From positions 62,001 to 126,000 of the forward strand of contig JAHBMJ010000013.1 of the NCBI GenBank assembly GCA_018398765.1: 64,000 nucleotides of DNA. The letters are read 5' to 3'. A program made the position numbers and the translations under genes. Shown in pieces: positions 237 to 24,016 of the stretch. Source of the DNA: Chromera velia. Lineage: Eukaryota. The notes below the pieces were generated by a model. That model was given only the letters and a program-made list of their open reading frames with translations. It did not search any database and had not been told where the DNA came from. Positions within the stretch are counted from its first letter, which is position 1. Each line of letters begins with the position of its first letter.

Positions 237-2336
237 GTGTCCCCCCTTCTCGACGGCTCTGCGCGTTCCACACTGCGGTACAGGACGACATTCCACAGCG
301 AGACCTGCAAGGGATACTCAGGTCAGTGCAGACGCAGATCGTCGCGTCGGTTCTCTCTCTGCTTCTTTGTTTCTTGTACACATGTATGTGTTCGATTGTG
401 AGACAGAGGATATGTTTCCAGTCCATGTGTGGAGGGAAATCAACACCGTTTTGTCCCCTTGATTCTCTCCCGTCGCTGTCTGTTGTCCCCCGTGTGAATC
501 ATCTATGCTCCTTCGTTACTCTCTTTTCTCTCTCTCGTTTCTGCCACCCACGTCCACGAGAGGGCAATCAACTCTCAACAGCCATCCAAGGACAGGTCCC
601 CGCCTCTCCCAGATGAAGAAGAGTCTCTGTCGATGCACATGCGAAAATGCAGAAGCCGAGCCCCCCACTGAGGCCCCTGTGTCTCCCATTCCCGAATCCG
701 TGGGGGCAGGCAGTCTCCGTTCTGCGTTGCCTGACCTTGACCTCCACCCTCGTGACCGTCTGACGTCGGTGGGGGGTGCGGGGGATCTGGCGGGGGCGTC
801 AGGGTTGGACTCTAAATCTGTGGTTTTGTTGGACAAGAAATTGGGTGACTATCTTGACGATATTCAGAGGTGGTACGCTAGTTACAGGGCCACTAGGGAG
901 GCGATCACTCAGGAGTATGGAGGGAGTTTGAGGCAGTTCTCGACGGGGCACACGGAGTTTGGGCTCCATGTCAGCGATGGAGCGATCACTTTCAGGGAGT
1001 GGCTTCCGAGTGCGTTGGAGGTGTATCTGATTGGAGAGTTTAATGCCTGGGACAGAACTAGACACCCCCTCACTCTGAAGGCACCCAAGGGAGCTGCAAC
1101 AAGGAAGGACAAAGACGGAGGAGAGGGGATCTCGTCGGGAATTTGGGAGCTCGAACTGCCCAATTCCGGCTCTCTGCCCGCGATCACCCATGGCACGAAG
1201 TTTAAGATGACAGTGAAGACAGAGGGAGGGGACGTGTTCGACAGAGTACCTGCGTGGACCCGCCTGGCATGGAAGAGCGAGGACTCGAACATCTTCGACG
1301 GGGTGTGCTGGAATCCTCCGGCATCGGTGGGTAGAGACAGGAGGAAAAAGGAAATTAGCTTTACAGGTAGTATGGCAATCTTCGGAGAGGGTGACTGGAA
1401 GTACTTGTTGAATTGAGGAGAAAATAAGGAACCTTGATTTCTTCGGAGTTCCCTCTCTCCGGCGTTTTCCCCCTTCATATCTGCGTGCGTGCATCTGCGT
1501 GAGGACGTTCATCTTTCAAGCACCGTTTCTCTGGCTTTTGTTTCTCTCTTGTTTGCTGAGCTTCTTTGTCCACCACTTCTTCAGGAGACCCCCCTTAAAC
1601 TGGTCTTCCACTTGTGTGTGTGTGTGTCTGTGTGTGTGTGTGTACTTTTCATCTTTTCGCCTCTCTCTTTTTTTTTCACCGCTCAACGGAAAAGCTTCTA
1701 TCTCTGTCTGTCCCCCACCCGCGTCCCCGTATTATCTATCTGGTCGGTCCCCGCTGCCCCTGCAGGAGAGGTACACGATGAGACACCCCCGTCCCCAGAA
1801 GCCCGAAGTCTTGAAGCTCTACGAAGCACACATCGGGACATGTGGGGCAGATGCCAAGGTGTCCACATACAGGTGGGAAGGAAGAAGACCGACAGCGCCT
1901 TTTTGTCGAGTTCTTTCTCTGTTCTTTCTCTCCGTTGTTCCCTGACAGTTTCTGTCCGACAAAACACCGCGTGCATCCTTGGAAGCGAACTTGTCTGCGA
2001 GGAGGAGAGTTTTGGGGAGCAGGAAGGAAAGAGAGCGGCTCCAGACGGGGCAATTCGCTTGGTCACCTGTTGCTTGCTGTTTTTTCTCTGCCCCCCCCTT
2101 TTTTCTTTCTGTTTTCAGGGAGTTCTGGGAGACGGTTCTGCCCCGAGTGAGGCGATTGGGGTACAACGCAGTCCTGTTGCTGGGCATTCAGGTCGGTCTG
2201 CCTGTTCGTGTACCCGTCGTTCCCTCTCTTTTCGCTTTTGTTTGTTCTCAAAAGGATCATGCGGCGTCTTTTCTCATTCCTGTCGTCATTCGTTCCTTCC
2301 TTCCTTCCTTCCTTCCTTCCTCTCTTTGTTTCCTTG

Positions 2337-2368
<32 letters not shown>

Positions 2369-4485
2369 TTTGTTTGTTTGTTTGTTTGACGGCAGAAGGG
2401 ACCTTCATGAATAAGCCTTCAGTGTCCTCTGTGGGAAGTAAATCAAAATTCATGTCATTTCCTCTTTTCCTTTCTCTCCTTCCCTTTGTTGTACAGGAAC
2501 ACTCTGAATACTCCACTGCGGGTCGTGACGTGACTTCCTTCTTTGCTCCCTCCTCCCGTTTCGGGACACCCGAGGAATTGAAGGAATTGGTCGACAGGGC
2601 GCACGGTCGGTGGGTTGAATGAAGAGAAGTAAGAGAAAGGAAGAATAAAAGGGAAGTTTTCTTGCTTATTTGTCATTCTCCTCACTGTGCCGACCTTTTT
2701 TTCCAATGATCACGGTGACATCCGAGGACGTTGGGGCTGTGTAGCGGTGTCTGTTTGCATCCCGTTCGTACCGAACACGGTAGAGTGTGAAGGAATGAAG
2801 CACATTTCTTCTTTCTCTCAATGCAATGCAGGCATGGGTCTGTCTGTCCTTTTCGAGTCTGTCGTCTCTCACGCCTCCCTCTCGACTCTGGACGGCCTCG
2901 CAAATCTGGACGGGAGCGATCCGGGAGTCGGATTCTTCGACAAAGGCGCGATGAACCAGTCATCTTTCCATCATGGGAAGTGCTTTGATTACTCGGTACG
3001 GGGGTTGGGGGGCTAGGGGGGGGGTTAATGTTTTCTCTCTTTGTTGTGTCCTTCTTTTTCTTCTTTGTCTGTTTTCTTGAATGGCTCCTCAAGCCCATTT
3101 CCTACTGGCCTGCATGTGCCTTCTTTCTCCATGCGTGTCTACTCGCTTTCCGGTTTCTCTTCTGTGTGCACACTCCTGTGTCTTTCTTGAAAGCTCTCTC
3201 CCTCTCTTTGTGTGTGTGTTCTCTCTCCCTCTCTCTGTTTCTGGCCACATCATCTGCAGAACCCCCAGGTCCTCAGGTTCCTCCTCTCCAACTTGCGGTA
3301 CTACATGGACGAGTTTGGGTCAGTCTGTCTCTCTGGCTGCCTGTCTATCTGGCAGACAGTGAGGGTGTGTGCGTGCGGGCAAGAGAGTGTTTTTCATTTT
3401 TGTTCTGATGTCTTCCTTACTTTCTGTGCCCTTGTGTGTTGGAAGGAAGGAAGGAAGTCGCTTACAGAAAGATCGGAATCAGAAGAGGCCCTGTGAAGAG
3501 AAGGGAAGGGACCCCCGATGGAAAGTCGAGCGGGGGGAAGAGCTGCCGGCCATGACCACACACGCCGTTTCCTCACCATTTAATTAATATTCCGTCTTTC
3601 AAATATTATTTCATAGATCGATCTGTCCATCTATCCGAACATTTCGCTCCCTCCAATCTCTGCAACCAACCGGCTTTTGTCTGCACGTGCATCTATTTGA
3701 CTACAAAAAAAACAAGAAGAAAGTCTTCATGCCTCTCCTCACTTGCAGAGCTGACGGTTTCCGTTTTGCCCACGTGACAGCGATGCTGTACAAGCACCGG
3801 GGCGTCGGGAGACACTGGGACCTGGTGGATCCGTTCAACCCTGCGTCCTCGTACAGACAGTACTTCGACTTCGATGTGTACACTCCCGGTGGGTGGCCAT
3901 TCAGGAAGGAAGGCTGTGTCTTTCTTGCCTTCGTTCCGCTCCGCTTCATTCTCTTTCCTTCCTTTCTCTTCTCCTTGTTTTCTGTATCTGTTAACTTCGC
4001 TCCATTTTAAAGTGTGAGACAAGTGTGGGCCGTCTTCTCTCATGCCGTCCCATTTTTCCCCCCGCCGTTTTCTCTTTTCACTTTCCGTTATTGCCTCAGA
4101 GGCGGCTTCATCAATTTGGCTTGCGTTGAGAATGGTACAACTACTACAAAGCAAAGCATGGCTATGTCAAAAGACTTTTATCCGAGAGAGAATTCACATT
4201 TCCTCGATCCCGTTGCAGGCGTGACATTCGTCCAGCTTGCCAACGACCTGGTCCACTCTCTGTCCCCCGACGCCATCACGATCGCAGAGGACCACTCAGG
4301 CCACCCCCTCACCTGTGTGCCCATCGCACAGGGAGGCTTCGGGTTCGACTTCAGACAGAACATCGGTCAGTGGGGGAACGAATGACTGTTAGGCTTTCTT
4401 TTCTTTTTCATATGGGAGTGTGTGGATTAGTCAGTGAGGATGGCGGGATGCAGTGGGAGAGAGAGAGGGAGAGAGAGAGAGAGAA

Positions 4486-4517
<32 letters not shown>

Positions 4518-6169
4518 AGAAAGAACGGTGGAAGCTCCGTAGTGCGGGTGGGTAAAGGTAATTCCTATGGACACTTCTGTCTCTTCTGTGACTGCCTGCC
4601 TGTCTGCCTTCAGGATACCCGGGTGCTCTCCTGAAGATGTTGAGGAGAGGGGAGTGTGGTTCGGGTCTGGACCTCCGTTTAATGGTTGACTGCCTCGCCA
4701 GGCGCTCCGTGAACGACAGGCCCCTCGTGTGCATGGAGAGCTTCGACCAGGTTGTCAACAGTCAGTCAGTCTCGTAGTGTGATGCCTGTGTGTGTTGATA
4801 CGTAATTCGGCAATTATCTTCGTGCGCACGGAGGGAACAGGTCAGACTAGGTCGCTAACATACAGTCTTTCGGGCTGACACGGATGGAAACACAAGCATG
4901 CGCTGTCAGTCAAAACGGGTGCGGATGAGACGAGAACGGAAAAGGGTTGCAAGTTTTCATGAAGACCTGCAACCTCGCAGGTACCTTTTTTTGAAAAGCT
5001 GGAAACCATCGTTCGCTCTTCCCAAGTTGTCATCTCGAAAAAACAAATCTCACACGACCTGCTTCAAATTCTTCCTCTTCCTGCTTCCGCGCTCAGGAAA
5101 GCGTCCCCTGAAGGTCGCGATGTTTGCTTGGGAGTCCCTGTACACCCACCCTGTTGGTGGGGTGGCCCCTCACGTGACGGAACTCGCAGCCGCACTCGCA
5201 CGTCTCGGACATGAGCCTCATGTGTTTGTGAGAAGGTCAGAAAGGGGGGGGGATAAATGCTGGGCCGATGAGTGCGTCACTGCACTCGCGTCTGTTTCTT
5301 TCTGTCTGTTTGCGTCGTTTCACCTGAAGGCGCTTCTTTCCTAAAGAAAAGGAAGATTTAGTCTCCATTTCGAACCCTCCCTTCCTGTCTGTTCCCCCTC
5401 TTTTCGCAGCACTGGCGCGGAGGCGAGCCACACCGTCCACTACGGAGTCCACTACCACCAGTGCACCTTCAACCTCTCGAGCGACTTTGTGGGGGAGATG
5501 TCGAGCATGTGCAACGCGTTCGTGTACTATATGGAGCAGCAAGAGATGGCACAGGGGGAACACTTCCAGGTGGGTTCATTGGTCGAATTCATGATGGGGA
5601 TACTATACTGAGTGGACTCTTTCTGTTCCTCTATTGACAAGCCCTTCCCTCTAACCCCTGTTTCGTCTGGTTTCGCCCTAGGTCACCATCTTTGCCTTTT
5701 TCCCTTTCCTTCTCCTTCATTCACCCTCTGTATCCCTTTCTGTCTTCTGTCTGCAGATCTGCCACTCCCACGACTGGCTGGCTGCCAAGGCTCTCGTGTC
5801 TGCGAAGGCCATGGGGAGGATGTGCGTGATGACAATGCACTCGACCGAGTTCGGAAGGTAGGTCAGGGGGTGGGGGGGGAGGTGTTGGGTGACAGGCTAG
5901 GGTAGAGACAAGATGCGTTCTGCCTCTCGTCGGTTAGTGGAGTGAACAGAGACGGACGTTGGGGTTTCCATTTGATTGCGCAATTCTTTCTGGTGGGTGC
6001 CCTTGAGTGTGAGAGAAGTTTGTGTTTCCTCGTTCCTTCCTGGCTGTGCATGTCTGCTCCGCTAGCTAGCATGGACCCCTCGACCAGCCAGTGAGGTTCG
6101 AGGGATCTGTCTTTGTGTTTCGAGTGAGTCTTTGTACACTTTTTCACTTGGTGAAGAATTCGGGCAGGG

Positions 6170-6200
<31 letters not shown>

Positions 6201-8269
6201 CATTTCTTTCTCTCTTTCTGAAACCCCTCTCTCTCTCTCATTTCGTGTGTTTGTTTGTTTGTTTGTGTGTGTGTGTTTGTGTGCAGGTGCGGGAACAACG
6301 CCTGGGGAGGACAGTCTGCGCGCATTCGTGACATCGAAGGTCGTTGGTGGAAGGGTGCGATGACATGGTTAATTCTCTGTGTGCCTGTCTGTCCTTTAGC
6401 TTGCAAGTGACTTTTCTCGCTTTTTCGTATGCTTCGGGGGGCGATTTTCTGTATTTTCTTTTTGTCCTGGTTTCTCTGTTCCTCCCTCGCTCCTCTCCCG
6501 AAGGTTTCTGAGCCTCCTTCCTCTTTCTTTTTGTCTGTGAACGCGGCCTCTCTTTTCTTTTTGCCACGCTTGTGCAGCTGAGGCTTGTCATGTCTCCGAC
6601 CGCGTCATTTGCGTCTCCGGAGTTTTGGCTGAGGAGGTGATCCACCAGTACGGGATCCACCCGGACAAGATCAAGGTAGGTCTGTCTTGTTGTCCGAGTT
6701 TTTAATGGGGCAACGCAGTGCGAAGCATGCGAGTGGCCGGCAGTTTGCCCTACTGCATGATCGACTCATGCACGCAAATTTTGATGCGTCCTTGCGTACG
6801 TCAGTTGATTTGCCCTACTGCATGAAAGGAGATCAAGTGCCATATTCACTGTTCCGCCGTACCTTTGTTTACTATGCGGGCTGGGGCCTCTGTCGGCTGT
6901 TTTTTCGCTTGCTGAGAGCCCCGTCTGCTTCAGCAGCAGAATGTATCGCATAATCATTGTACTGTCATATTTGTTTTGTATTATTGTCGGTACGTCCCCC
7001 CTGGATTCTTCCATTCTTCCGTTCAGGTGATCTACAACGGAATCCACTGCGAGAACTTCGACGGGGTGGAGGTGAACCCCGGAGAGATCAAGGAGAAGTA
7101 CGGCATCGGACCCATGGACCCCACATTCCTCTTCGTTGGAAGAATGGCCGTGCAGAAGGGACCCGACCTGCTCGTGGACGCTATCCCGATGATCCTCCAG
7201 GTCGGTGAATTTATGTTTTTCTGTCTGTCTTTGTGCATGGATGGATCTTTGTCTGTCTTTCTGTGTTTTTTGTCTGTTTGTGGACGGGTGACTGTCAATC
7301 TATCGGCATAGACTCTCTGTCTCTCTGTGCACCCTCTTCTTTGTCGGCCAGAATTTGTAAAAAGTGAACGCCAATGGAGGCAGAGAAACGGGCGGAACAT
7401 TCAAACCGCAGCTGAAGCAGAGACCGCAGCTCTGTGATCCGTTTGCTCCTTGAATGAACATAAATGCTCCCTTCTCCACTCAACATTCGGCTGTACACAC
7501 ACCCCTCTCTTTTCCTTCCTTTCCCTTCCCCTACCCACAGGCCCGAGGAGACGCCAAATTCCTCATCGTGGGAGACGGCCACATGAAGGACGACCTGGCG
7601 GCACGTATGGCACATTACTCGGGGAGTGTCAAGTTCCTGGGGGCAAAGAAGGGGTGGGAGGTCAGTCAGTGCCTTCCTTCCTTGGTCATGTTCTCTTTGT
7701 CAAGTGTTGTGATCTGCATATTGACGTGACTGTTCGGTCTGACGTTTTTCTCGTTTGTGCATTTCTTTTGCGTGATCCCCTTTCAATGTGGGTAAAACAG
7801 AGCAAGTTTGGTTCCCCGTATTTCGATCCAAAACGACCTTCCGATCACTTTTCTGTCCCGCCTTCTTGCTTTCTTCATTCAGGTCCGTTCCCTCTTCAAA
7901 GCATGCGATGCCGTGGTCGTGCCCTCCCGCAATGAGCCCTTCGGCATCGTCGTGCTGGAATCCTGGGCAGCCCACAAACCCGTGGTGGCCACAACCTCCG
8001 GAGGTCCCAGAGATTTCGTGTCACACGACGGAGACGGGTATCTCGTGGACCCCACTCCTGGCAGCATCGCCTGGGGGTGCTGTAAAGTCAGTCAGTCCGG
8101 ATTGTTTGTCTGACTGCCTGTGAAGGGAAAAGAAAAGAAACCAGTGCAGAACAGTAATTGTTTGTCTGACTGCCTGTGAAGGGAAAAGAAACCAGTGCAG
8201 AACAGTAACTCACAGTCACTCGGTGTCAGTCGGTCGGTCGGATGTACGAGTTTCTGTGGCTTGCACACA

Positions 8270-8304
<35 letters not shown>

Positions 8305-9584
8305 GGTGGGAAAGAAAGAAGAATATGTCCACTGAGTCGGTTTTCCTGCGCGCCTGTGTTTTTCTGCAAGAACACAGAAAAACGAAGACCACAGTTGGAT
8401 CCCTCCCTAATTCCTCTCCTCTCCTGGTCTCTCCCCTTCTGTCTATCGTGCAGGTGATGGAGAACTTTGCCCATGCGCAATGGATGGGCCAGAGGGGCCG
8501 TGTGAAGGCCGCGTTCTCCTTCTCTTGGGACACGATTGCAGAGGACACGCGGAACGTGTACTGGCAACAGTTGAACAAACTGGACTGCCCTGTGGGAGTC
8601 ACTCACGAAGGTGCGTGCGTTGGAGTGAACCCAGAGATAGATGATGTGAACGAAAACCTGTCCTCTCTCTCGGAGTTACCGAAAACCAGAGAGGGAAGAA
8701 CGGGTCTCTTTTTTTCTCTCTGATGAGAAATCTTCTGCTGACTGGAACCTCCCCGCTCTTCTTCTCTCTCTTCCGTTCTTGTTCTCTTCTCTCCCTTCCG
8801 TTTATTTTCTCTGCTTACTCGTCGTCCTTTACTTGGTTGTTGAGTATTCCCACATGACATTTTCGGACCGGAAAGTCAGAAACGAGATCATGAGACTATC
8901 TCCTGATTCCCTTCCACCCCTGCATGCAGGTGACTACTCGGTTTCCCAGGGCATTCTCGGTCTCCACCAGGCAGACCACATGGGTGTGTTCGACTCCCAC
9001 GTGCCTGTCAGACACGGCATGGCACTCATCAACACTCTCAAAATCGCCACCCTGGCCGTGGGGGGGGCAGTGATCCGATGGGCAGACCCCATCTCCAGGT
9101 CAGTCAGCAGAAAGAAAAGGGAAATGTTGTGTGGGAACGGGTTGGCTCTCGAGTCTTCTGCTGGACCTTTCCATACTATCATTCCTTTTCCAAAGGGAAG
9201 GGTTGTGAACAGAATGACAAACGCAAATTGACATCGTGATCTTGCAAAGGCATCCATTACACTGTCTTTTCTTCTCCCTCCCTGCAGGCCCTACACGGAC
9301 GACGGCAAAGTCCTGAGCGAAGAGGCGATGATGCAGTCGGACGTGAACGCGAGGGGAGGAGCAGCGTGGATGAATGCTGCCGGGTCTGAATTTGGACACC
9401 CAGACGGAATTGATTTCCCTAGGTGAGCTGGCTTTCTTTCTTTCTTTCTTTCTTTCTTTTCTTTCTTTCTTTCTTTCTTTTCTTTCTTCCTTCCTTCCTT
9501 CCTTCCTTTCTTCCTTCCTTCCTTCCTTCCTTTCTTCCTTCCTTCCTTCCTTTCATCCTTCCTTCCTTTCATCCTTCCTTCCTC

Positions 9585-9615
<31 letters not shown>

Positions 9616-9627
9616 GTTTTTTCTTTT

Positions 9628-9661
<34 letters not shown>

Positions 9662-9770
9662 TTTTCTTTCTTTCTTTCTTCCTTCCTTCCTTTCCTTCCT
9701 TCCTTCCCTTCCTTCCTTCCTTTCTTCCTTCCTTCCTTTCATCCTTCCTTCCTTTCATCCTTCCTTCCTC

Positions 9771-9801
<31 letters not shown>

Positions 9802-9813
9802 GTTTTTTCTTTT

Positions 9814-9847
<34 letters not shown>

Positions 9848-9883
9848 TTTTCTTTCTTTCTTTCTTTCTTTCTTCCTTCCTTC

Positions 9884-9914
<31 letters not shown>

Positions 9915-11404
9915 GTCCCTTCCCCTCTCGCGCCTGTATCTATGTCTCTCCTTCCTGCCAGTCTGCTCCTCTCCCCCCCATTCGTGTGTCTAAGAGATGG
10001 GAAGGCAAATTGGGATCTGTTGAGGCTGATATCAGTATGGTATGAAGATCTCTTTTTGTGTGCTTGAATTTGATCTGTGCTTCTGTCTTCTGTCGATCCG
10101 TCAGGGCCGGCAACGGATTCTCCTACGAGAACGCGAGGAGAAAGTGGGAGCTCTCCGGCGACAAGGGCCTGAAGTACAAGCACCTGGAGCTCTTCGACGC
10201 TGTGCTTGTGAGGATGGACGCACTCTTGAAGATCTCTCAGGACCCTTACGCCAGCGTTGGGCTGCTGCACGGGACTGGTCAGTCAGTCGGGCTCTTAGGT
10301 GGGGAGTGGAGTGGAGAGATAAGTCATGCAGAAGCAGGCAAGTAGGTGGCACTCCCTGACAACATAAACTTGAGAGAGGGACAGAGTGGGGAAGAGATCG
10401 TCGTTTCAATGTGCCTGCTCCTCAGGACTGTTCTATTGCATGTCCAGCTTGAACCGACGAGCTTGTGGTCTTCTCACGTTTTGCATTCGTTCTGCCATCA
10501 TTTGTCTTCCCCTTTTTTCCGCTTGTCGCTGCAGACCAGCTTCTGGCTGTGGAGCGCCAGGGTTGTCTGATCGTGATGAACTTCTCCTGGAATGAGTACA
10601 AAGACTACAGGGTGTTCACGACCATTCCCTTGGAACAACAACTGAAGGTGCGTGCCTTGTCTGAGCGTGTATGTCGGGTCGTCTCTCGCAGATCCACTAG
10701 AGACGCCGGGTGTGGCAGTGAGGGAGTTGAGGCAGTGGGCTTTCATGTTTGTGTGCTTGGAAGGAAACGTGTGGACTTAAGGCAGAAGCGGGGAACTGTG
10801 AGATCGACCATGAGGTGCAACTACGAGATTTGATGTGCTTCGTATTTCGGCATTTTGTTCTCCTGTGTATGCGATCATGCTTCTTTATCACATTTCCCTG
10901 TCAGGTGGCTCTGAGCACCGGAGAGACCCGCTTTGGTGCCACAGGCGACTGCTCCGTGACCAAGCATGAGGCCGTGACGACTGCGGGAGAGGCCCCGACC
11001 TCCCTCCACACCCACGCGGTCTTCGTGGACCTCGCTCCGAAGAGCGCCATGGTGAGTTGAGTGAGAAGCATGTTCTTTCTGAGGTCGTGTGTTTTTGAAG
11101 GGGTGGGTGGGTGGCACTGTGTGATTATTTTTCTGCTTTCGTCCGATTGATCGCCCATACGTTCCTTTTCCTCCCGATCGGTGGCCGTGAGACCTTGTCT
11201 GTTTTGATCTTGTCTGTGTCTAGAGGATCTGCAGATTGACAAATTACGTTTTGATCTTCCCCCCCCTTTTCTCCTTCTTCACCCTCTCTTGTGTGTGTGC
11301 AGATCCTGGCTCCCAACTCGGCTGTGTCGAAGTTGAAGGGGGATCCGGTACTCCTCATGGACGCAGACGCGTTCATCGATGCGCGTGCGAAGTTTCTCCA
11401 ATGA
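237..11404 (+). CDS. Branching-enzyme-like protein (CBM48 + GH13, apparently catalytically dead) with an inserted GT4 glycosyltransferase; 5'-partial, >=1270 aa
   Basis: Manually spliced exons: 237-321, 582-1326, 1766-1872, 2119-2191, 2497-2605, 2832-2995, 3260-3318, 3749-3888, 4219-4365, 4614-4760, 5097-5235, 5410-5569, 5757-5857, 6287-6339, 6578-6675, 7027-7200, 7541-7660, 7883-8086, 8454-8610, 8930-9098, 9288-9422, 10105-10277, 10535-10647, 10905-11051, 11303-11404. All introns are GT-AG and the frame stays open to TGA 11402-11404. Branching-enzyme motifs: [110 protein letters not shown]. The first exon (237-321) is the least certain. Confidence 0.9.
5097..8610 (+). other. GT4 (GT-B fold) glycosyltransferase module, 402 codons over 9 exons, nested inside the GH13 domain
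   Basis: [99 protein letters not shown] (E-x7-E at 7934 and 7958), [17 protein letters not shown]. Confidence 0.9.
8102..8208. repeat. Two-copy ~50-56 bp tandem duplication inside an intron
   Basis: ttgtttgtctgactgcctgtgaagggaaaaga...aaccagtgcagaacagtaa occurs twice back to back. Confidence 0.85.
9431..9913. repeat. Long (CTTT)n/(CCTT)n microsatellite with an internal ~186-bp higher-order duplication, intronic
   Basis: Almost pure pyrimidine tract. The marker 'ctgttttttcttttt' recurs at about 9614 and 9800. Confidence 0.9.
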
Positions 11405-14400
11405 GCGGAAGGAAGGAGAGAAGGGGGGCGCGGTGGTGATGAATGACCGAGTGTGTGCAGAAAGAAACACGGAATGGGTCGAAGGATAAAGAACGCTTTT
11501 GTGCGTGTTAACGCTCTACTTGGGTGGTTGTGGGAGGGCGGGGAAAATCTGAGTGTTAATTTAGTTTGCTTTGATTTGTCTTTTTGTTGGAAGGATCCTT
11601 GAAAGTGACAGAAAAAATGTCTGTTGGCTTCATTTCCTTGGCTCCTTCTTTCTTTTCATGGCTGGAGCTGCAAGAGGTGAGTGCCGTGTTTGTTTGCGAG
11701 ACAGAAAGAAAGACAGACAGACCGTGTGGTCGGCAGGTCGCTCTCATTTTTCTCCTGTTGCCTGCCTTCCTTTCCTTTTCCCCTCTATCGTCTGTTGGTC
11801 CGTACATGTACTCTGTTCGTGTTTGTTTCTTTTGTAGAAGGCGGCGGGAAATGAGCGGGAAATGAGCTGTACCCATTTTTCTTTCTTTTTTCCTATTCCC
11901 CGTCTTTCTTTTTCCTTTTTGGTGTGCGGTGGCGGGGGTGAAAAGTTCCATCCCCTTTTCTTGCGTGAAACCGAAAAAAGGGAAAAAATTGAAATCACAA
12001 AAAGATGGAAACGTCTCAAGATGGCGACGAAAAAAACGACAAAACAGTGGGAGAACGGGAGACCCTCTCTCTGCATGCACTTGTTGTGTTTTTTTGTCCG
12101 ATTTTCCCGTTCTACTCGTTGTTCGACGTTATGGTCTCTGTCTGCATTTTTTCAACGACGTGAAAAAATCCTCTCCTCAGCTCTTCCCTTTCTTCCTGCC
12201 TTTCCTTCCCCGCCTTCACTGCTTGACGAACAAGTCGTTTCCTTCCCCTTTCAATCTTCGCCCCTTTCTCTGTCAGCCCATCCGTCTGTTTCATCTCTTA
12301 TCTCTTCCTCTCCTCCTTTCACGCTCTCTCCTTCTCCTCCTCAGCAGGACGATCCGTCTTTTTCCGCGCGTGACAGACAAGACACACAAGTATGCAATTT
12401 GACTTTATTTCGGGGGCCAGGGAGTGTGAGAGAGATCAGGAAGTCCGAAAAAAAGGGGGCACTAAAGGCACATGTACATCAAGGGGGGCAGTAATTGATC
12501 TGAAGAATTTTGGTATCTCACGTCATGTCTGTTTTTCATGTCAGCAAGATTGAGAGCAGAAGGGGAGTTGGGTTGGGTCAGCGAGACGGGAGACGAGGTA
12601 AAGCACTAGGAATGTGTGTGTCGTGCCGTGCTTCTTTTCTTGTTTCTTTTTTTAATACCCCCGCTCTTTCTTCCCTCTTTTCATCGCACCTCGATAGTAG
12701 TAGCAGTAGTCATTGGAAAGGGACGGCAATACTAACTGACGGAAAAAAGGAAAGCAGAGACGATCAATCAATCAAATCAGAGAGAAGCAGGTGTCTTCCC
12801 GCAGAGACAGTGAGCCTGCGTGCGGGTAAGACGAGAAAAGTGACAATATGGGCAAAGGCCTAGAGATCGGTCCGATTGGGGAGAGAGAGAGAGACAGAGA
12901 GAAGCTGGGCATTCATTTTTCTACCTGGCCCCATCTGCCTGCTGCGGTTTGAAGGCAGTGGGAGGGGGGCAGTGCGTCGGTCTGCTTTGGCTTCTTTTCC
13001 TGCACATTCATTGCAGCGTTTTGTAGTCTCGATTGTTTGTTTGTATGGCGTGATGGGAGAAAGAAGAGGGAAGGAAAAGATGGGAGCAGATGGCCTTGTG
13101 ATGAATGCGGGTCGAGCAGAATGGAAACAATGCAGAACCATTTTTGATTAGGCGGGCACTTATAGGTGTCAATGTTTTTCCTTTTTCTCTGACTTCATCC
13201 TCTCCTTGCTTGCTCTGCTGTGTCTGTTTGTCTGTGACGGTAGGATGGTGGCAGGGTGTCACTTGCAGCATTAATGGTTCGAGTTCTCTTTGTGGAATGA
13301 GTCAAAAAGGAAGGAGGCAGGTCCCTTTCTTCATCTGTCTCTACTTTTTTTCTGAAGAATTGGCTGTCTCCTATCTGTCAAACACCCGATTCCCTCTCCC
13401 GTTTTTGATCGCCCCTCCCTCACTTCCTCCCATCGCCCCCCCCGCCCTCCATCCCCATCCTTCTCTCTGATTGGATTCGTCCGAAAGGACGGTCGAACTT
13501 ACTAGAGTGTTCCCGCTCCTTCCTTTCCTTGCAGCGTCCCGCCTCATTCCTTCTCTTCGTTTGCGGAGAGGGTAGTAGTAGTTCTCCTTTTCTCGATGTC
13601 TCTTTCTCTTTTCAGGCAGGGCGGGAAAGCGAATGCAGATCCTCATCTCCTCAGCAGATGCGATGCGCCAAAGTCAAAATACTAGGAGCAGCGCTTGAGT
13701 CCTGCTTTCCTTCTTCCGCTCGTGCCCCCCTCTTTCTTCCTCTCTCTTCGTGTCTTCTCTTTTGAACTTTGAATTTTTCTCGCCTGCTTCTTTGTTGTTG
13801 GGATTGATGCATTTGTTCGTGAATATGTGGGTGGAATGTATTCATGGATTCATAGATGGAAGAGGCGAAGGGTGACGATAAACAAATGGCTGCATTGTTG
13901 TGAGGTGGGTTGGTGTAGCTCTTTTGATTCTTTCGTGCATGACGAAGGGGGTGTTCTGGTAGAGGGCAAAGACATGCAGAGAAGGACTTCGCCCCGAAGG
14001 ACGAAAGGAAGGAGGACATTTCGGTGGCTTAATTGATGTTAGAAGGAGAACAGAGGAGGAGGGAGACCACTGAACGTGTCCGTACGCCTCGCTGCCCGAG
14101 ATTCTCGGGGTGCGAAGATCCGGCCGGTAACTTTAGAGGACAAGGCGAGGCGAGAGATGTATGTGGCGATCGAAGGAGGACCAGAATCACTACCGGGGAG
14201 GAAATTAAGACTTTTTGAGAAGCCTGGTGCCGTGCGCAGCACACAAAGGTGGAAGGTGCAAAGGTGTCTGGGTCTGGCAGTAGATTATAGTCTAGATTCT
14301 AGTAGACTCTAGAATGGATTGAACAAAACAGTGCAACATGAATAATCATAGATTGATTCAATTTGATTGGCAGACTGATTCAATATTATGGTCGCAACTA

Positions 14401-21298: not shown

Positions 21299-24016
21299 CT
21301 ATGATGGCACCTTCCGACTGCTGGAACCCAAAACTGCCTCAGCCATACTCAACCGACGTTGGCTGTCTTCCTCTCCCTCTTCTTCTTCTTTTTCACTTTC
21401 TTTCTCCTCTTCCACCACTTCCGTCTCTTTCTCTTCCTCCGCTCCACTCTCCTTTTCCTCGACGTTTTGTACCTCCACTTCAACCGTCTCCTCTTCCACC
21501 TCTTCCTCTTCCTCTACAGGAGCAGGAGCCTCACAGTCTCCTTGATCCCACCCACACTCCTCAGTGTTGCATAGGGGATCACAGGACCCATCTCCCATCC
21601 ACTGAGGAAAGCAACCGGGACACCCAGCAACATCCGCACAGTCTCCCTCGTCCCAATTACACGACTCTGTATTGCACGCCTGGTCACACCATCCGTCTCC
21701 AACATGCTCAGGACGGCAGTCTGCATTGCACATTGTCGTGCAGTCTCCCTCATCCCACCCACATGCCTCTGTGTTGCATGCCTGGTCACAAATCCTGTCC
21801 CTCAACATCTCTACCTTGCAACCCGGCGAGCACTCAGACACAGAAGGAGTCGAGGCAGCAGCTGCACCCCCCAGCGTTGCGTCCCTCCTTTCCTCCTCTG
21901 CCCCTCTGACCTCAGGCTCCCACGCGTCTCTGTTCTCTTCCTCTTCACTGTCTGAGTCTTCCCTTCTCGATCTAGAGGGACGAGACGGCATGAAACGATC
22001 AAGGAACCCCCCACCCCCATCAGACCCTCCCAAAATACCGAGAGGGTCAAGGAATTGGGTGAGGGTGCCTGTTGTCAGAGACGGCAGGGGAAGGCCGTCC
22101 AGTCTCTCGCGTCCCCCCATGGTCTCACTCAGAAGAGGCACACCACCAGACCCAACAGCACCCTCCATCAACTCAGACGCTCTGTCCATCAACGAACCTC
22201 CAGTGGAAGACGAGGACGCACCCGAGATGCCCGAAGAACTGTCGGAACGACCACCGCCCGACGAGGCGGGAAGACCGAGAAGAGACTGCAGAAGGGAATT
22301 CCCCCCGATGCAGTCTCCCCCGTCCCACGCGCACTCACGCACAAAGCACGCGACTTGGCATTCGCCGTCTCCCAAAAGATCGGCTCTGCAGTCCTCGGCG
22401 CATTTCGCTGCAGAGACAAGAAGAGGGACAGATCGAAGGTGTGGATTCAGCATTTGAGTCCCTTTATGGAACACGCTTACTTCTGTTCTCATCTGGAGTG
22501 ACACCCTCCTACAACTGGTGACGTTCGGAAAAGAGAAGGGGGGTGGAATGAAAACGGAGAAACGGGTTCCATCCACTTAAGATAGAAGGCAGAATAATCG
22601 GTCTTTGAACTGGTGAGGAAGCCAAAAACCAAAACAGGCTTGACCCCGTCACTAAGCTGCTTCTCCTTTCTTCCCATGCATGAAAGGAGAGACTGCACAT
22701 AACCAAGCAGAAACCCACGACAGAGATATGGGAAAGCAAGCACGAAGATATCTGAAGGAAACAAGGAAGAAAAAGGAACTCACGGCTGCAGTCTCCTCCA
22801 TCCCAAGAGCACGCATCGTTATCGCAATCAGAGTCGCATCTCCCGTCTCCGATCTCGTCCTCCTTGCACGAAGAGGGACACTCCTCAGTGCGCCTCCCTC
22901 CAACCAGAGACTCCAGAAAGGAGACAGACGTCTCGTCCGAACGAACAAGGCGGGTAAGGTCAGAAGGAGAAGAGCTTATTGCGCCTGCTTCCTCTGTAGA
23001 TGCCGTCTCTGTCTCCTCCATTTCTTCACTGACATCCACAGCGGCTGTCACGTTGCCAGTTGCCTCTGTCACATTGCCTCCCGTCTCCCCCTGAGTTTCC
23101 AAAGTACTCTCTACTTCTGATTCTTGCATCCCTCTCAAACCCTGATCAACCCCCCCCACACCCCCTGACTCCAGACGCGAAAGAAGGGCGTCCACAGGCG
23201 ACCCCCCCACCCCGTCTCCCCCCGACCCGAAAACGTCACGAACAAAGAGAGAACGGACCAGACTGGTACCGAAGTCATCCCCTGAGCGCTGACTGGCCAA
23301 AATCTCATCTGGGGGCATGGCAGATGTTCCTGCCATTTCCTCCGTCCCTTCCAAAATCCCCCTCGCTCTTTCACCGTCGAAAAGCCCGACTTCCCACAGA
23401 GACGTCCTCTCAGAGAGGAAACCTCCCAGCGCGTAGGGGGACTTATCGTCTTCGTCATCGTCACTGTCTTCATCGAACGAGGGCAGCTGAAGATTCCGAG
23501 CTACCAGGTCCCATCGCTTCTCAAATTCCTTCTCTGAATTCCTTCTTTCTCCCTCCGTTTCGGGAAGCTGAAAGTTCATCAGATCACCAGCAAACACCTC
23601 CAAGAGACTGCTGTGCATTCGCTCAAAGCCGCCAGTCAATCCATCGGGAGCCATCAGCGCTGCACACACAGACAGAGACAAGGTGAGGAACGAAGCCACG
23701 AAAGCCAAGAAAGCAGCAATCCCAAACAGCGCTTACCATCTGGAAGCATCTTTGTGAGGAATCCGAATGGATCCTGTGCGAAAAGCTCCGCTTCCCCTGT
23801 CGCCCCCATCTCTCCACCATTTGCTGCCCTCTCTCTTGCCCTGCGTCCCTCAACCATTTCCATTACACTGCGTGCGCCTTCAACGAACAGATCGAAGAGG
23901 CCGAGTCGCCTTAAGCGTTGTTCTCTTGAAAGGTCAGACACCTGTTGCTGGCTATGTGCAACCAACACAAGGCTGGTGCAACACACAGCCAAAATCGACA
24001 GTGGAAGCCTTGCCAT
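21299..24016 (-). CDS. Secreted LNR (Lin-12/Notch repeat) protein with five LNR modules, ~754 aa
   Basis: Exons 24016-23737, 23659-22784, 22407-21299, both introns phase 1, frame open. Signal peptide MARLPLSILAVCCTSLVLVAHS. Five modules of the form C-x(2-3)-C...GDG-x-CD-x2-C-N-x3-C-x-WD-x-GDC. Acidic C-terminal tail; no transmembrane segment seen. Confidence 0.85.

What the first reader, a model, noticed from the sequence alone, without database searches (positions are those of the whole stretch)
4614..9098. A complete GT4 glycosyltransferase is inserted inside the catalytic barrel of a glucan branching enzyme
Seen: the GH13 sequence runs normally to conserved region IV (ESFDQVVN). It then switches to a full ~400-aa GT4 domain and afterwards resumes as branching enzyme (GDYS...[14 protein letters not shown]...[12 protein letters not shown]...RRKW). 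Established: eukaryotic GH13_8 branching enzymes read ESHDQALVGDKT...RGIALHKMIRL...EFGHPEWLDFPR without interruption. This is therefore a domain insertion after beta-7, not an end-to-end fusion. Inference: one polypeptide couples a glucan-binding scaffold to a sugar-nucleotide transferase, a candidate starch/amylopectin granule-initiation or elongation factor. Related proteins may already be annotated in apicomplexans; I cannot check that here.
Basis: partly seen in the sequence, partly recalled or inferred. Interest (0 to 1): 0.85.

Follow-up and report, generated by a model that had tools for sequence, protein, structure and literature searches.

The report
Known dead branching-enzyme carrying glycosyltransferase insert
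This is a real, spliced gene of the alga Chromera in which a sugar-transferase sits inside a starch-branching enzyme that has lost key catalytic residues; the fusion is already described across malaria-parasite relatives as needed for starch, and the inserted enzyme is likely still active, which is untested.

Summary
The window encodes residues 253-1501 of Chromera velia Cvel_2560. A 402-codon GT4 cassette (nine exons, 5097-8610) interrupts a GH13_8 branching enzyme five residues after the region IV Asp. Spliced contigs join both borders in four runs from two studies, and single contigs span the gene. An AlphaFold model closes the barrel: 637 of 645 human GBE1 residues align at 1.7 A.

It is not new. 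51 myzozoan proteins retrieved here share the layout (Toxoplasma TGME49_209960 is one). A 2026 preprint (10.64898/2026.09.25.754361) describes the BE2-GT4-BE2 fusion and starchless Chromera mutants.

Added here:
- The GH13 catalytic triad is complete in 0 of 51 fusions, against 23 of 23 intact enzymes.
- GT4 catalytic motifs are kept in 50-51 of 51.
- Both flanking introns cut the same codon position, suggesting insertion into an intron.
- There is an N-terminal tandem ABM-like domain and a conserved kinase-type motif.
- Bacterial GT4 relatives sit beside GH57 genes in 24 of 43 loci.

Best reading: a pseudoenzyme glucan scaffold carrying a likely active alpha-glucosyltransferase. Activity, donor and acceptor are untested.

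The parts
237..321 (+). Exon, Cvel_2560 aa 253-281: last strand of the N-terminal tandem ABM-like barrel. The rest of the domain and the kinase-type motif (aa 9-18) lie upstream of the window.
   Evidence: fold
653..1326 (+). Exon: linker, N-terminal helices and CBM48
   Evidence: Pfam CBM_48 E 2.7e-11; contigs begin this exon at 650-653
1766..4760 (+). Eight exons (1766-1872, 2119-2191, 2497-2605, 2832-2995, 3260-3318, 3749-3888, 4219-4365, 4614-4760): GH13_8 barrel from beta-1 to beta-7
3768..3770 (+). Ala683, in place of the GH13 catalytic nucleophile Asp (GFRFAH against GFRFDG)
   Evidence: sequence
4287..4289 (+). Glu746, the acid/base position, retained here
   Evidence: sequence
4742..4747 (+). 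Phe815-Asp816 of region IV: His lost, Asp retained
   Evidence: sequence
4761..5096 (+). Phase-1 intron at the 5' border of the insert, inside the codon equivalent to human Gly486
   Evidence: joint seen in 4 of 4 runs
5097..8610 (+). GT4 cassette, nine exons (5097-5235, 5410-5569, 5757-5857, 6287-6339, 6578-6675, 7027-7200, 7541-7660, 7883-8086, 8454-8610), 402 codons, GT-B fold
7934..7960 (+). E-x7-E motif of the GT4 (Glu1120 to Glu1128)
   Evidence: sequence
8611..8929 (+). Phase-1 intron at the 3' border of the insert, at the same codon position as the 5' border intron
   Evidence: joint seen in 4 of 4 runs
8930..11404 (+). Six exons (8930-9098, 9288-9422, 10105-10277, 10535-10647, 10905-11051, 11303-11404): helix 7, beta-8, end of the barrel, C-terminal all-beta domain, stop

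Best explanation
Cvel_2560 is one polypeptide in which a GT4 domain with intact catalytic motifs interrupts a branching-enzyme fold lacking its nucleophile Asp; the dead fold likely holds alpha-glucan chains while the GT4 likely adds glucose from a nucleotide sugar to make or extend short chains. Shown here: one spliced frame, the insertion point, loss of the GH13 triad across the family, and near-invariant GT4 motifs. Predicted: the barrel closes around the insert, which leaves from the beta7-alpha7 loop next to the former active site. Reported by others: branching is done by a separate bacterial-type BE1; the fusion is needed for starch; its N-terminal part alone rescues up to 20%. Inferred: the donor is UDP-glucose, the acceptor is a malto-oligosaccharide or glucan end, and the N-terminal part (kinase-type motif, ABM-like barrel, CBM48) targets and gates the complex.
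For: Triad complete in 0 of 51 fusions against 23 of 23 intact enzymes; region IV His in 0 of 51. GT4 Gly-Gly, His948, Arg1043, Lys1048, Glu1120 and Glu1128 in 51 of 51, and His-Asp-Trp in 50 of 51. Most of these lie outside the query exon, and identity without that exon is still 0.58. In 11 proteins that carry both an intact and a split copy, mean pairwise identity is 0.87 for the intact barrel, 0.54 for the split barrel and 0.79 for the GT4. Model pLDDT 87.7, pTM 0.88 from an alignment of fusions only; 637 of 645 human GBE1 residues at 1.7 A. The top GT-B structural match is GlgM (Z 42.2), near MshA (41.1), sucrose-phosphate synthase (40.3) and Pyrococcus glycogen synthase (38.8). HxHDW, TxH, GR..QKG and EPFG..LE are shared with the Pyrococcus synthase. 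Stand-alone prokaryotic relatives have a GH57 gene within 6 kb in 24 of 43 close loci, against 1 of 9 distant loci. Starchless mutants map across the fusion (citing an unseen manuscript).
Against: No activity data exist in what I could read. The preprint reports that a nonsense allele with no GT4 keeps up to 20% of normal starch, so transfer by this GT4 is not strictly required. Conserved motifs fit ligand binding as well as turnover. The GT4 is below the cut-off of every NCBIfam model listed; the best is TIGR02149 at 151 bits against 302, so its substrate cannot be read off. 19 of 43 close prokaryotic loci show no GH57 gene, some on short contigs. I could not inspect coordinates, so whether the GT4 cleft faces the barrel cleft is unknown.
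Confidence: 0.45

Rival explanations
1. Sensor-gated non-catalytic factor (the preprint's model): the essential function is in the N-terminal CBM48-containing part, and the BE2 and GT4 domains only sense substrate and expose or hide it.
For: A truncation keeps up to 20% starch while other alleles across the fusion are starchless. The GH13 part is a pseudoenzyme. The N-terminus carries conserved elements that could be regulatory.
Against: All GT4 catalytic-type residues are kept, as in 34 of 34 stand-alone GT4s, with none of the decay seen in the GH13 site of the same proteins. Losing 80% of the starch also fits a catalytic contribution. I did not see the nature of the other alleles.
Confidence: 0.3
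2. The GT4 is active on a small acceptor such as glucose-1-phosphate, in the manner of GlgM, and makes a disaccharide(-phosphate) primer or signal for phosphorylase; the barrel only localises it.
For: GlgM is the top GT-B structural match and the top GT family model. The preprint says phosphorylase is central to granule aggregation in Chromera.
Against: The score is half the GlgM cut-off, and the Z margin over MshA is about 1, close to a tie. GlgM feeds GlgE in bacteria; I did not test for a GlgE partner here.
Confidence: 0.17
3. The fusion is still a working branching enzyme with a GT4 appended in a loop.
For: The fold is predicted intact; Glu746 and Asp816 are retained in Chromera; some databases name orthologues branching enzyme.
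Against: The nucleophile is Ala here and Asp in only 8 of 51; no fusion has the full triad. The fusion does not complement BE1 loss according to the preprint.
Confidence: 0.03
4. The GT4 exons are an independent nested gene in a branching-enzyme intron, or an annotation artefact.
For: Skipping exons 5097-8610 gives an open frame exactly collinear with intact enzymes at the joint. Contigs drop rare isoforms.
Against: Both border joints are seen in 4 of 4 runs and no 4760-8930 joint is listed. The GT4 exons begin mid-codon. 51 fused proteins come from genomes and transcriptomes of many lineages.
Confidence: 0.02

Closest known systems
Myzozoan BE2alpha-GT4-BE2b fusion (bioRxiv 10.64898/2026.09.25.754361, Cenci et al.; mutants in Chabi et al., submitted, not seen)
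   Same: Same organism and architecture: a GT4 disrupting the GH13_8 BE2 gene. GT4 monophyletic in Myzozoa and near red-algal proteins, which my tree repeats. The preprint passages I read give no gene id, so equating it with Cvel_2560 is my inference.
   Different: Nothing in architecture. Its main text has no occurrence of ABM, monooxygenase, GH57, intron, exon, tandem or kinase as word starts. Its supplements and the companion paper were not visible and may cover these points.
Toxoplasma TGME49_209960 / TGGT1_209960 ('SBE2', 'glycosyltransferase', 1707 aa; P0055)
   Same: Orthologue, 44% identical over 1208 columns; identity with P0055 confirmed by length and a shared peptide window. Listed as a putative second branching enzyme and left untested in PMC9241709. 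Listed as required in mouse infection in a CRISPR screen.
   Different: Longer low-complexity insertions in the N-terminal region; Glu at the nucleophile position and Asn at the acid/base position.
Eukaryotic GH13_8 branching enzymes (human GBE1, rice BEI)
   Same: CBM48, barrel and C-domain; 637 residues superpose at 1.7 A.
   Different: Triad broken, 402-residue insert at Gly486, and an N-terminal extension.
GlgM (GT4 maltose-1-phosphate synthase) and archaeal glycogen synthase
   Same: GT-B fold and shared motifs.
   Different: 27-28% identity and below the family cut-offs; these are stand-alone enzymes.
Stand-alone GT4 of red algae and of Chloroflexi, Planctomycetes and Omnitrophota
   Same: 45-58% identical to the insert; the red-algal-type group is the sister clade.
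   Different: Unfused; I found no characterised function (search listings only).

Membership tests
Myzozoan BE2-GT4-BE2 fusion | GT4 inserted within a GH13_8 gene | tested here: met
Myzozoan BE2-GT4-BE2 fusion | GT4 in the myzozoan clade, sister to red-algal-type GT4 | tested here: met
   51 of 51 fused GT4s form one clade (FastTree support 0.945), sister to 6 stand-alone proteins (1.0), among 85 sequences. No named cryptophyte or glaucophyte sequence was in the set.
Myzozoan BE2-GT4-BE2 fusion | Required for starch synthesis | not testable with these tools
   reported in the preprint
GH13_8 branching enzyme (fold) | CBM48, (beta/alpha)8 barrel and C-terminal beta domain | tested here: met
   the closure is a prediction
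GH13_8 branching enzyme (active) | Asp/Glu/Asp triad and region IV His | tested here: not met
   Ala683, Glu746, Phe815, Asp816; full triad in 0 of 51 fusions
GT4 | Two Rossmann domains, PF13439 and PF00534 above cut-off | tested here: met
GT4 | Gly-rich loop, His, Arg/Lys and E-x7-E residues of retaining GT-B enzymes (roles recalled, not from a call) | tested here: met
GT4 | Measured transfer from a nucleotide sugar | not testable with these tools
   no assay found
GlgM / glgA_Coryne (TIGR02149) | Score at or above 302.4 | tested here: not met
   151.2 bits
GT5 glycogen/starch synthase (TIGR02095) | Score at or above 328.45 | tested here: not met
   64.1 bits
ABM-like dimeric alpha/beta barrel (N-terminal region) | Tandem ferredoxin-like repeats | tested here: met
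   Vitrella model (pLDDT 66) matches 3f44 at E 4.6e-11, TM 0.73. Pfam ABM is above cut-off in 1 of 12 homologues and weak in 1 more. Atlas score 0.87, a lead only. No Pfam ABM hit on Cvel_2560 itself.
ABM-like dimeric alpha/beta barrel (N-terminal region) | Monooxygenase activity or ligand | not tested
   a shared fold shows no function

The most novel reading that the evidence does not exclude
The fusion is a phosphorylation-gated starch-priming enzyme. An uncharacterised GT4 glucan synthase from prokaryotic GH57 glycogen clusters entered via a red alga, landed in a phase-1 intron of BE2, and now extends chains held by the dead barrel. A conserved N-terminal serine motif and a tandem ABM-like domain switch it. 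This would be a GT4 glucan synthase or primer enzyme in eukaryotes, and would explain why the N-terminal fragment partly rescues.
Probability: 0.25. Interest if true: 0.72.

Novelty: already known. Interest (0 to 1): 0.33.

Why it matters
The architecture itself is no discovery: it is in public annotations and in a 2026 preprint with mutant data. It still matters because how apicomplexans and their algal relatives start starch granules is open, and the Toxoplasma orthologue scored as needed during mouse infection. The residue census turns the open question, enzyme or sensor, into specific point-mutant tests. The N-terminal motif and ABM-like domain are candidates for the unexplained essential function at the N-terminus.

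Tried and rejected
No whole genome was held for the window, so BE1 and the other pathway genes were not checked, and intron positions in other species could not be compared. No run is on record as RNA; the five holders are guessed RNA. A search with the first large exon returned only 13 distant branching enzymes, mostly fungal, and missed the self protein; 12 served as intact controls and P0133 was left out. My first start codon at 613 was rejected: contigs and Cvel_2560 use an acceptor at 653. The companion paper (Chabi et al.) was not found. The CDPK2 paper was not held. The conserved motif serine (Toxoplasma Ser37) was not among the phosphosites I saw for 209960. Those were Ser92 and Ser284; the files were cut when stored and two files of a third paper were not searched, so phosphorylation of the motif has no direct support. 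No passage on the glycogen-synthase HDW motif was found, so its acceptor role is recalled only. The wide fold search for the N-terminal model did not run. The earlier-findings search returned nothing. No complex prediction was sent.
Full report
Observation. The region is an intron-rich eukaryotic gene on the + strand. I built 24 exons with GT..AG introns that read as one open frame. A search with GT4 exon 7883-8086 returned a protein identical to the C-terminal 510 residues. Its cluster holds Chromera velia Cvel_2560, 1501 aa. The corrected model, with exon 237-321 and an acceptor at 653, is exactly the last 1249 residues of that protein. The GT4 occupies nine exons, 402 codons, and passes both GT4 Pfam cut-offs. 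The Vitrella orthologue matches human GBE1 in two stretches, 34-486 and 485-700.

One transcript. Five runs from two studies hold the stretch; none is on record as RNA. I laid four runs on each of two stretches, five runs in all. Both border joints appear in 4 of 4 runs, and no joint skipping the cassette is listed. Contigs of 7654, 7622 and 7509 nt from one study carry pieces on both sides of the insert; in the 7654-nt contig I checked the offsets and they equal my exon lengths. The second study shows both joints on separate contigs. Contigs cannot exclude a rare skipped form.

Distribution. One search found 842 hits and listed 120. From these I took 50 proteins whose BLAST match to my model runs from the barrel through the GT4, plus Cvel_2560, leaving out fragments. 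Named members include Vitrella, Toxoplasma, Neospora, Besnoitia, Eimeria, Cyclospora, Cryptosporidium, gregarines, Durusdinium and Polarella. Their GT4 parts form one clade (support 0.945), sister to six stand-alone proteins that include red algae (1.0), nested among prokaryote-type stand-alone GT4s (FastTree, rooted on two stand-alone sequences).

Which half is alive. The Asp/Glu/Asp triad is complete in 0 of 51 fusions and 23 of 23 intact controls. The nucleophile Asp is kept in 8, the Glu in 13, the region IV Asp in 17 and the region IV His in 0. Chromera has Ala at the nucleophile. In contrast, 14 of 17 GT4 positions checked are kept in 51 of 51 and the His-Asp-Trp in 50 of 51, as in 34 of 34 stand-alone GT4s. 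The set was found with a GT4 exon, which biases that exon, but identity outside it is 0.58 against 0.37 for the barrel. Eleven proteins with both an intact and a split copy give 0.87, 0.54 and 0.79 for intact barrel, split barrel and GT4.

Structure. AlphaFold2 on residues 330-1501, with 48 fused or partial fused sequences and no intact enzyme, gave pLDDT 87.7 and pTM 0.88. Foldseek aligns it to rice BEI and human GBE1 across the insert with target TM 0.91-0.94 for the best chains. VIA-align places 637 of 645 GBE1 residues at 1.7 A. The insert matches GlgM (Z 42.2), MshA (41.1), sucrose-phosphate synthase (40.3) and Pyrococcus glycogen synthase (38.8). No NCBIfam cut-off is reached.

Hints on substrate. 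A genome scan with a Chloroflexi relative gave 52 loci. Of 43 close ones, 24 have a GH57 gene within 6 kb, 4 of them also GH13 GlgB; 1 of 9 distant loci does. There is no genome-wide background for this, and the loci are related. A review notes uncharacterised GT4 genes in archaeal glycogen clusters and speculates on a synthase role (PMC11046441, passages). The Toxoplasma pathway is described as UDP-glucose dependent (10.1101/401828, passages).

How the insert arrived. Both flanking introns are phase 1 and fall in the codon equivalent to Gly486. Removing the cassette in silico restores exact register with intact enzymes. This suggests insertion into an existing intron followed by capture through splicing. 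That is an inference from one species.

N-terminus. Residues 1-280, mostly outside the window, are conserved in chromerids, gregarines and coccidians. A model of the Vitrella region shows two ferredoxin-like repeats matching putative monooxygenases of the ABM type, in line. A basophilic kinase-type serine motif lies upstream of CBM48 in 43 of 51 fusions (pattern tightened after the fact). I saw no phosphorylation of that serine in the Toxoplasma tables I could search.

What is known. The preprint 10.64898/2026.09.25.754361 (abstract, the first part of section 6 and keyword passages read; supplements closed) names the BE2alpha-GT4-BE2b fusion as a myzozoan synapomorphy. It reports starchless Chromera mutants across the gene and a nonsense allele keeping up to 20% starch, and proposes that BE2 and GT4 are regulators of an N-terminal function; the data are in an unseen manuscript. 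PMC9241709 (passages) lists TGME49_209960 as untested SBE2. 10.1101/2023.03.05.531216 (section 13) lists it as required in mice. For PMC9729606, PMC9880002 and PMC11414933 I saw supplement rows, and keyword passages of the first; for PMC10557770, passages only. All other papers were seen as search listings only.

Verdict. I file it as the myzozoan BE2-GT4 fusion, a GH13_8 pseudoenzyme with an intact GT4, and not as an active branching enzyme, GlgM or GT5 synthase. I favour an active alpha-glucosyltransferase on a glucan-binding scaffold (0.45) over a pure sensor (0.30) and a small-acceptor enzyme (0.17). Interest 0.33, for the open mechanism and the testable leads.

Noticed in passing
window 4761-5096 and 8611-8929: Both introns flanking the GT4 are phase 1 and cut the codon equivalent to human Gly486. 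Removing the cassette gives a frame with no gain or loss of residues against intact enzymes. A rough, after-the-fact chance estimate is 6e-4.
   Followed up: partly
upstream of window base 1 (P0134 aa 1-251) and window 237-321: Tandem ABM-like barrel in 19 of 51 fusions (14 profile seeds and 5 further coccidian proteins), 0 of 25 in the dinoflagellate-type clade and 0 of 46 controls.
   Followed up: partly
P0134 aa 9-18, upstream of the window: A motif of the form hydrophobic-x-R/K-x-x-S-x-x-x-hydrophobic (AMPK/CDPK-type consensus, recalled) lies upstream of CBM48. It is in 18 of 18 chromerid/apicomplexan-side proteins with the N-terminal motif and 24 of 25 dinoflagellate-type proteins (25 of 25). 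A tighter pattern fitted afterwards gives 43 of 51 against 1.0 expected from shuffles, and 0 of 23 intact enzymes; these sequences are related by descent.
   Followed up: partly
P0015, P0060, P0017 and eight more: 11 proteins of about 1950 aa (two named dinoflagellates) carry an intact branching enzyme with a full triad in front of the split copy.
   Followed up: partly
window 9060-9360: An insert of about 35 residues between helix 7 and beta-8, absent from the Vitrella and Toxoplasma orthologues, spanning a contig-supported joint; low confidence in the model.
   Followed up: no
window 11400-12000 and beyond: Contigs run on past the stop and past 12000, and contig depth rises from about 11536, which may be an overlapping neighbouring transcript.
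   Followed up: no
window 21302-23732 (-) and 25458-26276 (+): Frames with LNR (Notch) repeats and a DHHC palmitoyltransferase domain; 6 of 9 long frames tested had no Pfam match.
   Followed up: no
L005, L006, L007, L008, L044: A recurring prokaryotic cluster of this GT4 with DUF4912 and GH57 genes, including GH57 branching enzymes; GalT-like genes in 3 of 43 loci and GH13 GlgB in 4 of 43.
   Followed up: partly
Toxoplasma TGME49_209960 (PMC9729606 supplements): Ser92 phosphorylation is up about 5-fold without PP2A-C and down to 0.70 without CDPK2, and protein level falls to about 0.41 without PP2A-C. The gene id is not in that paper's main text.
   Followed up: no
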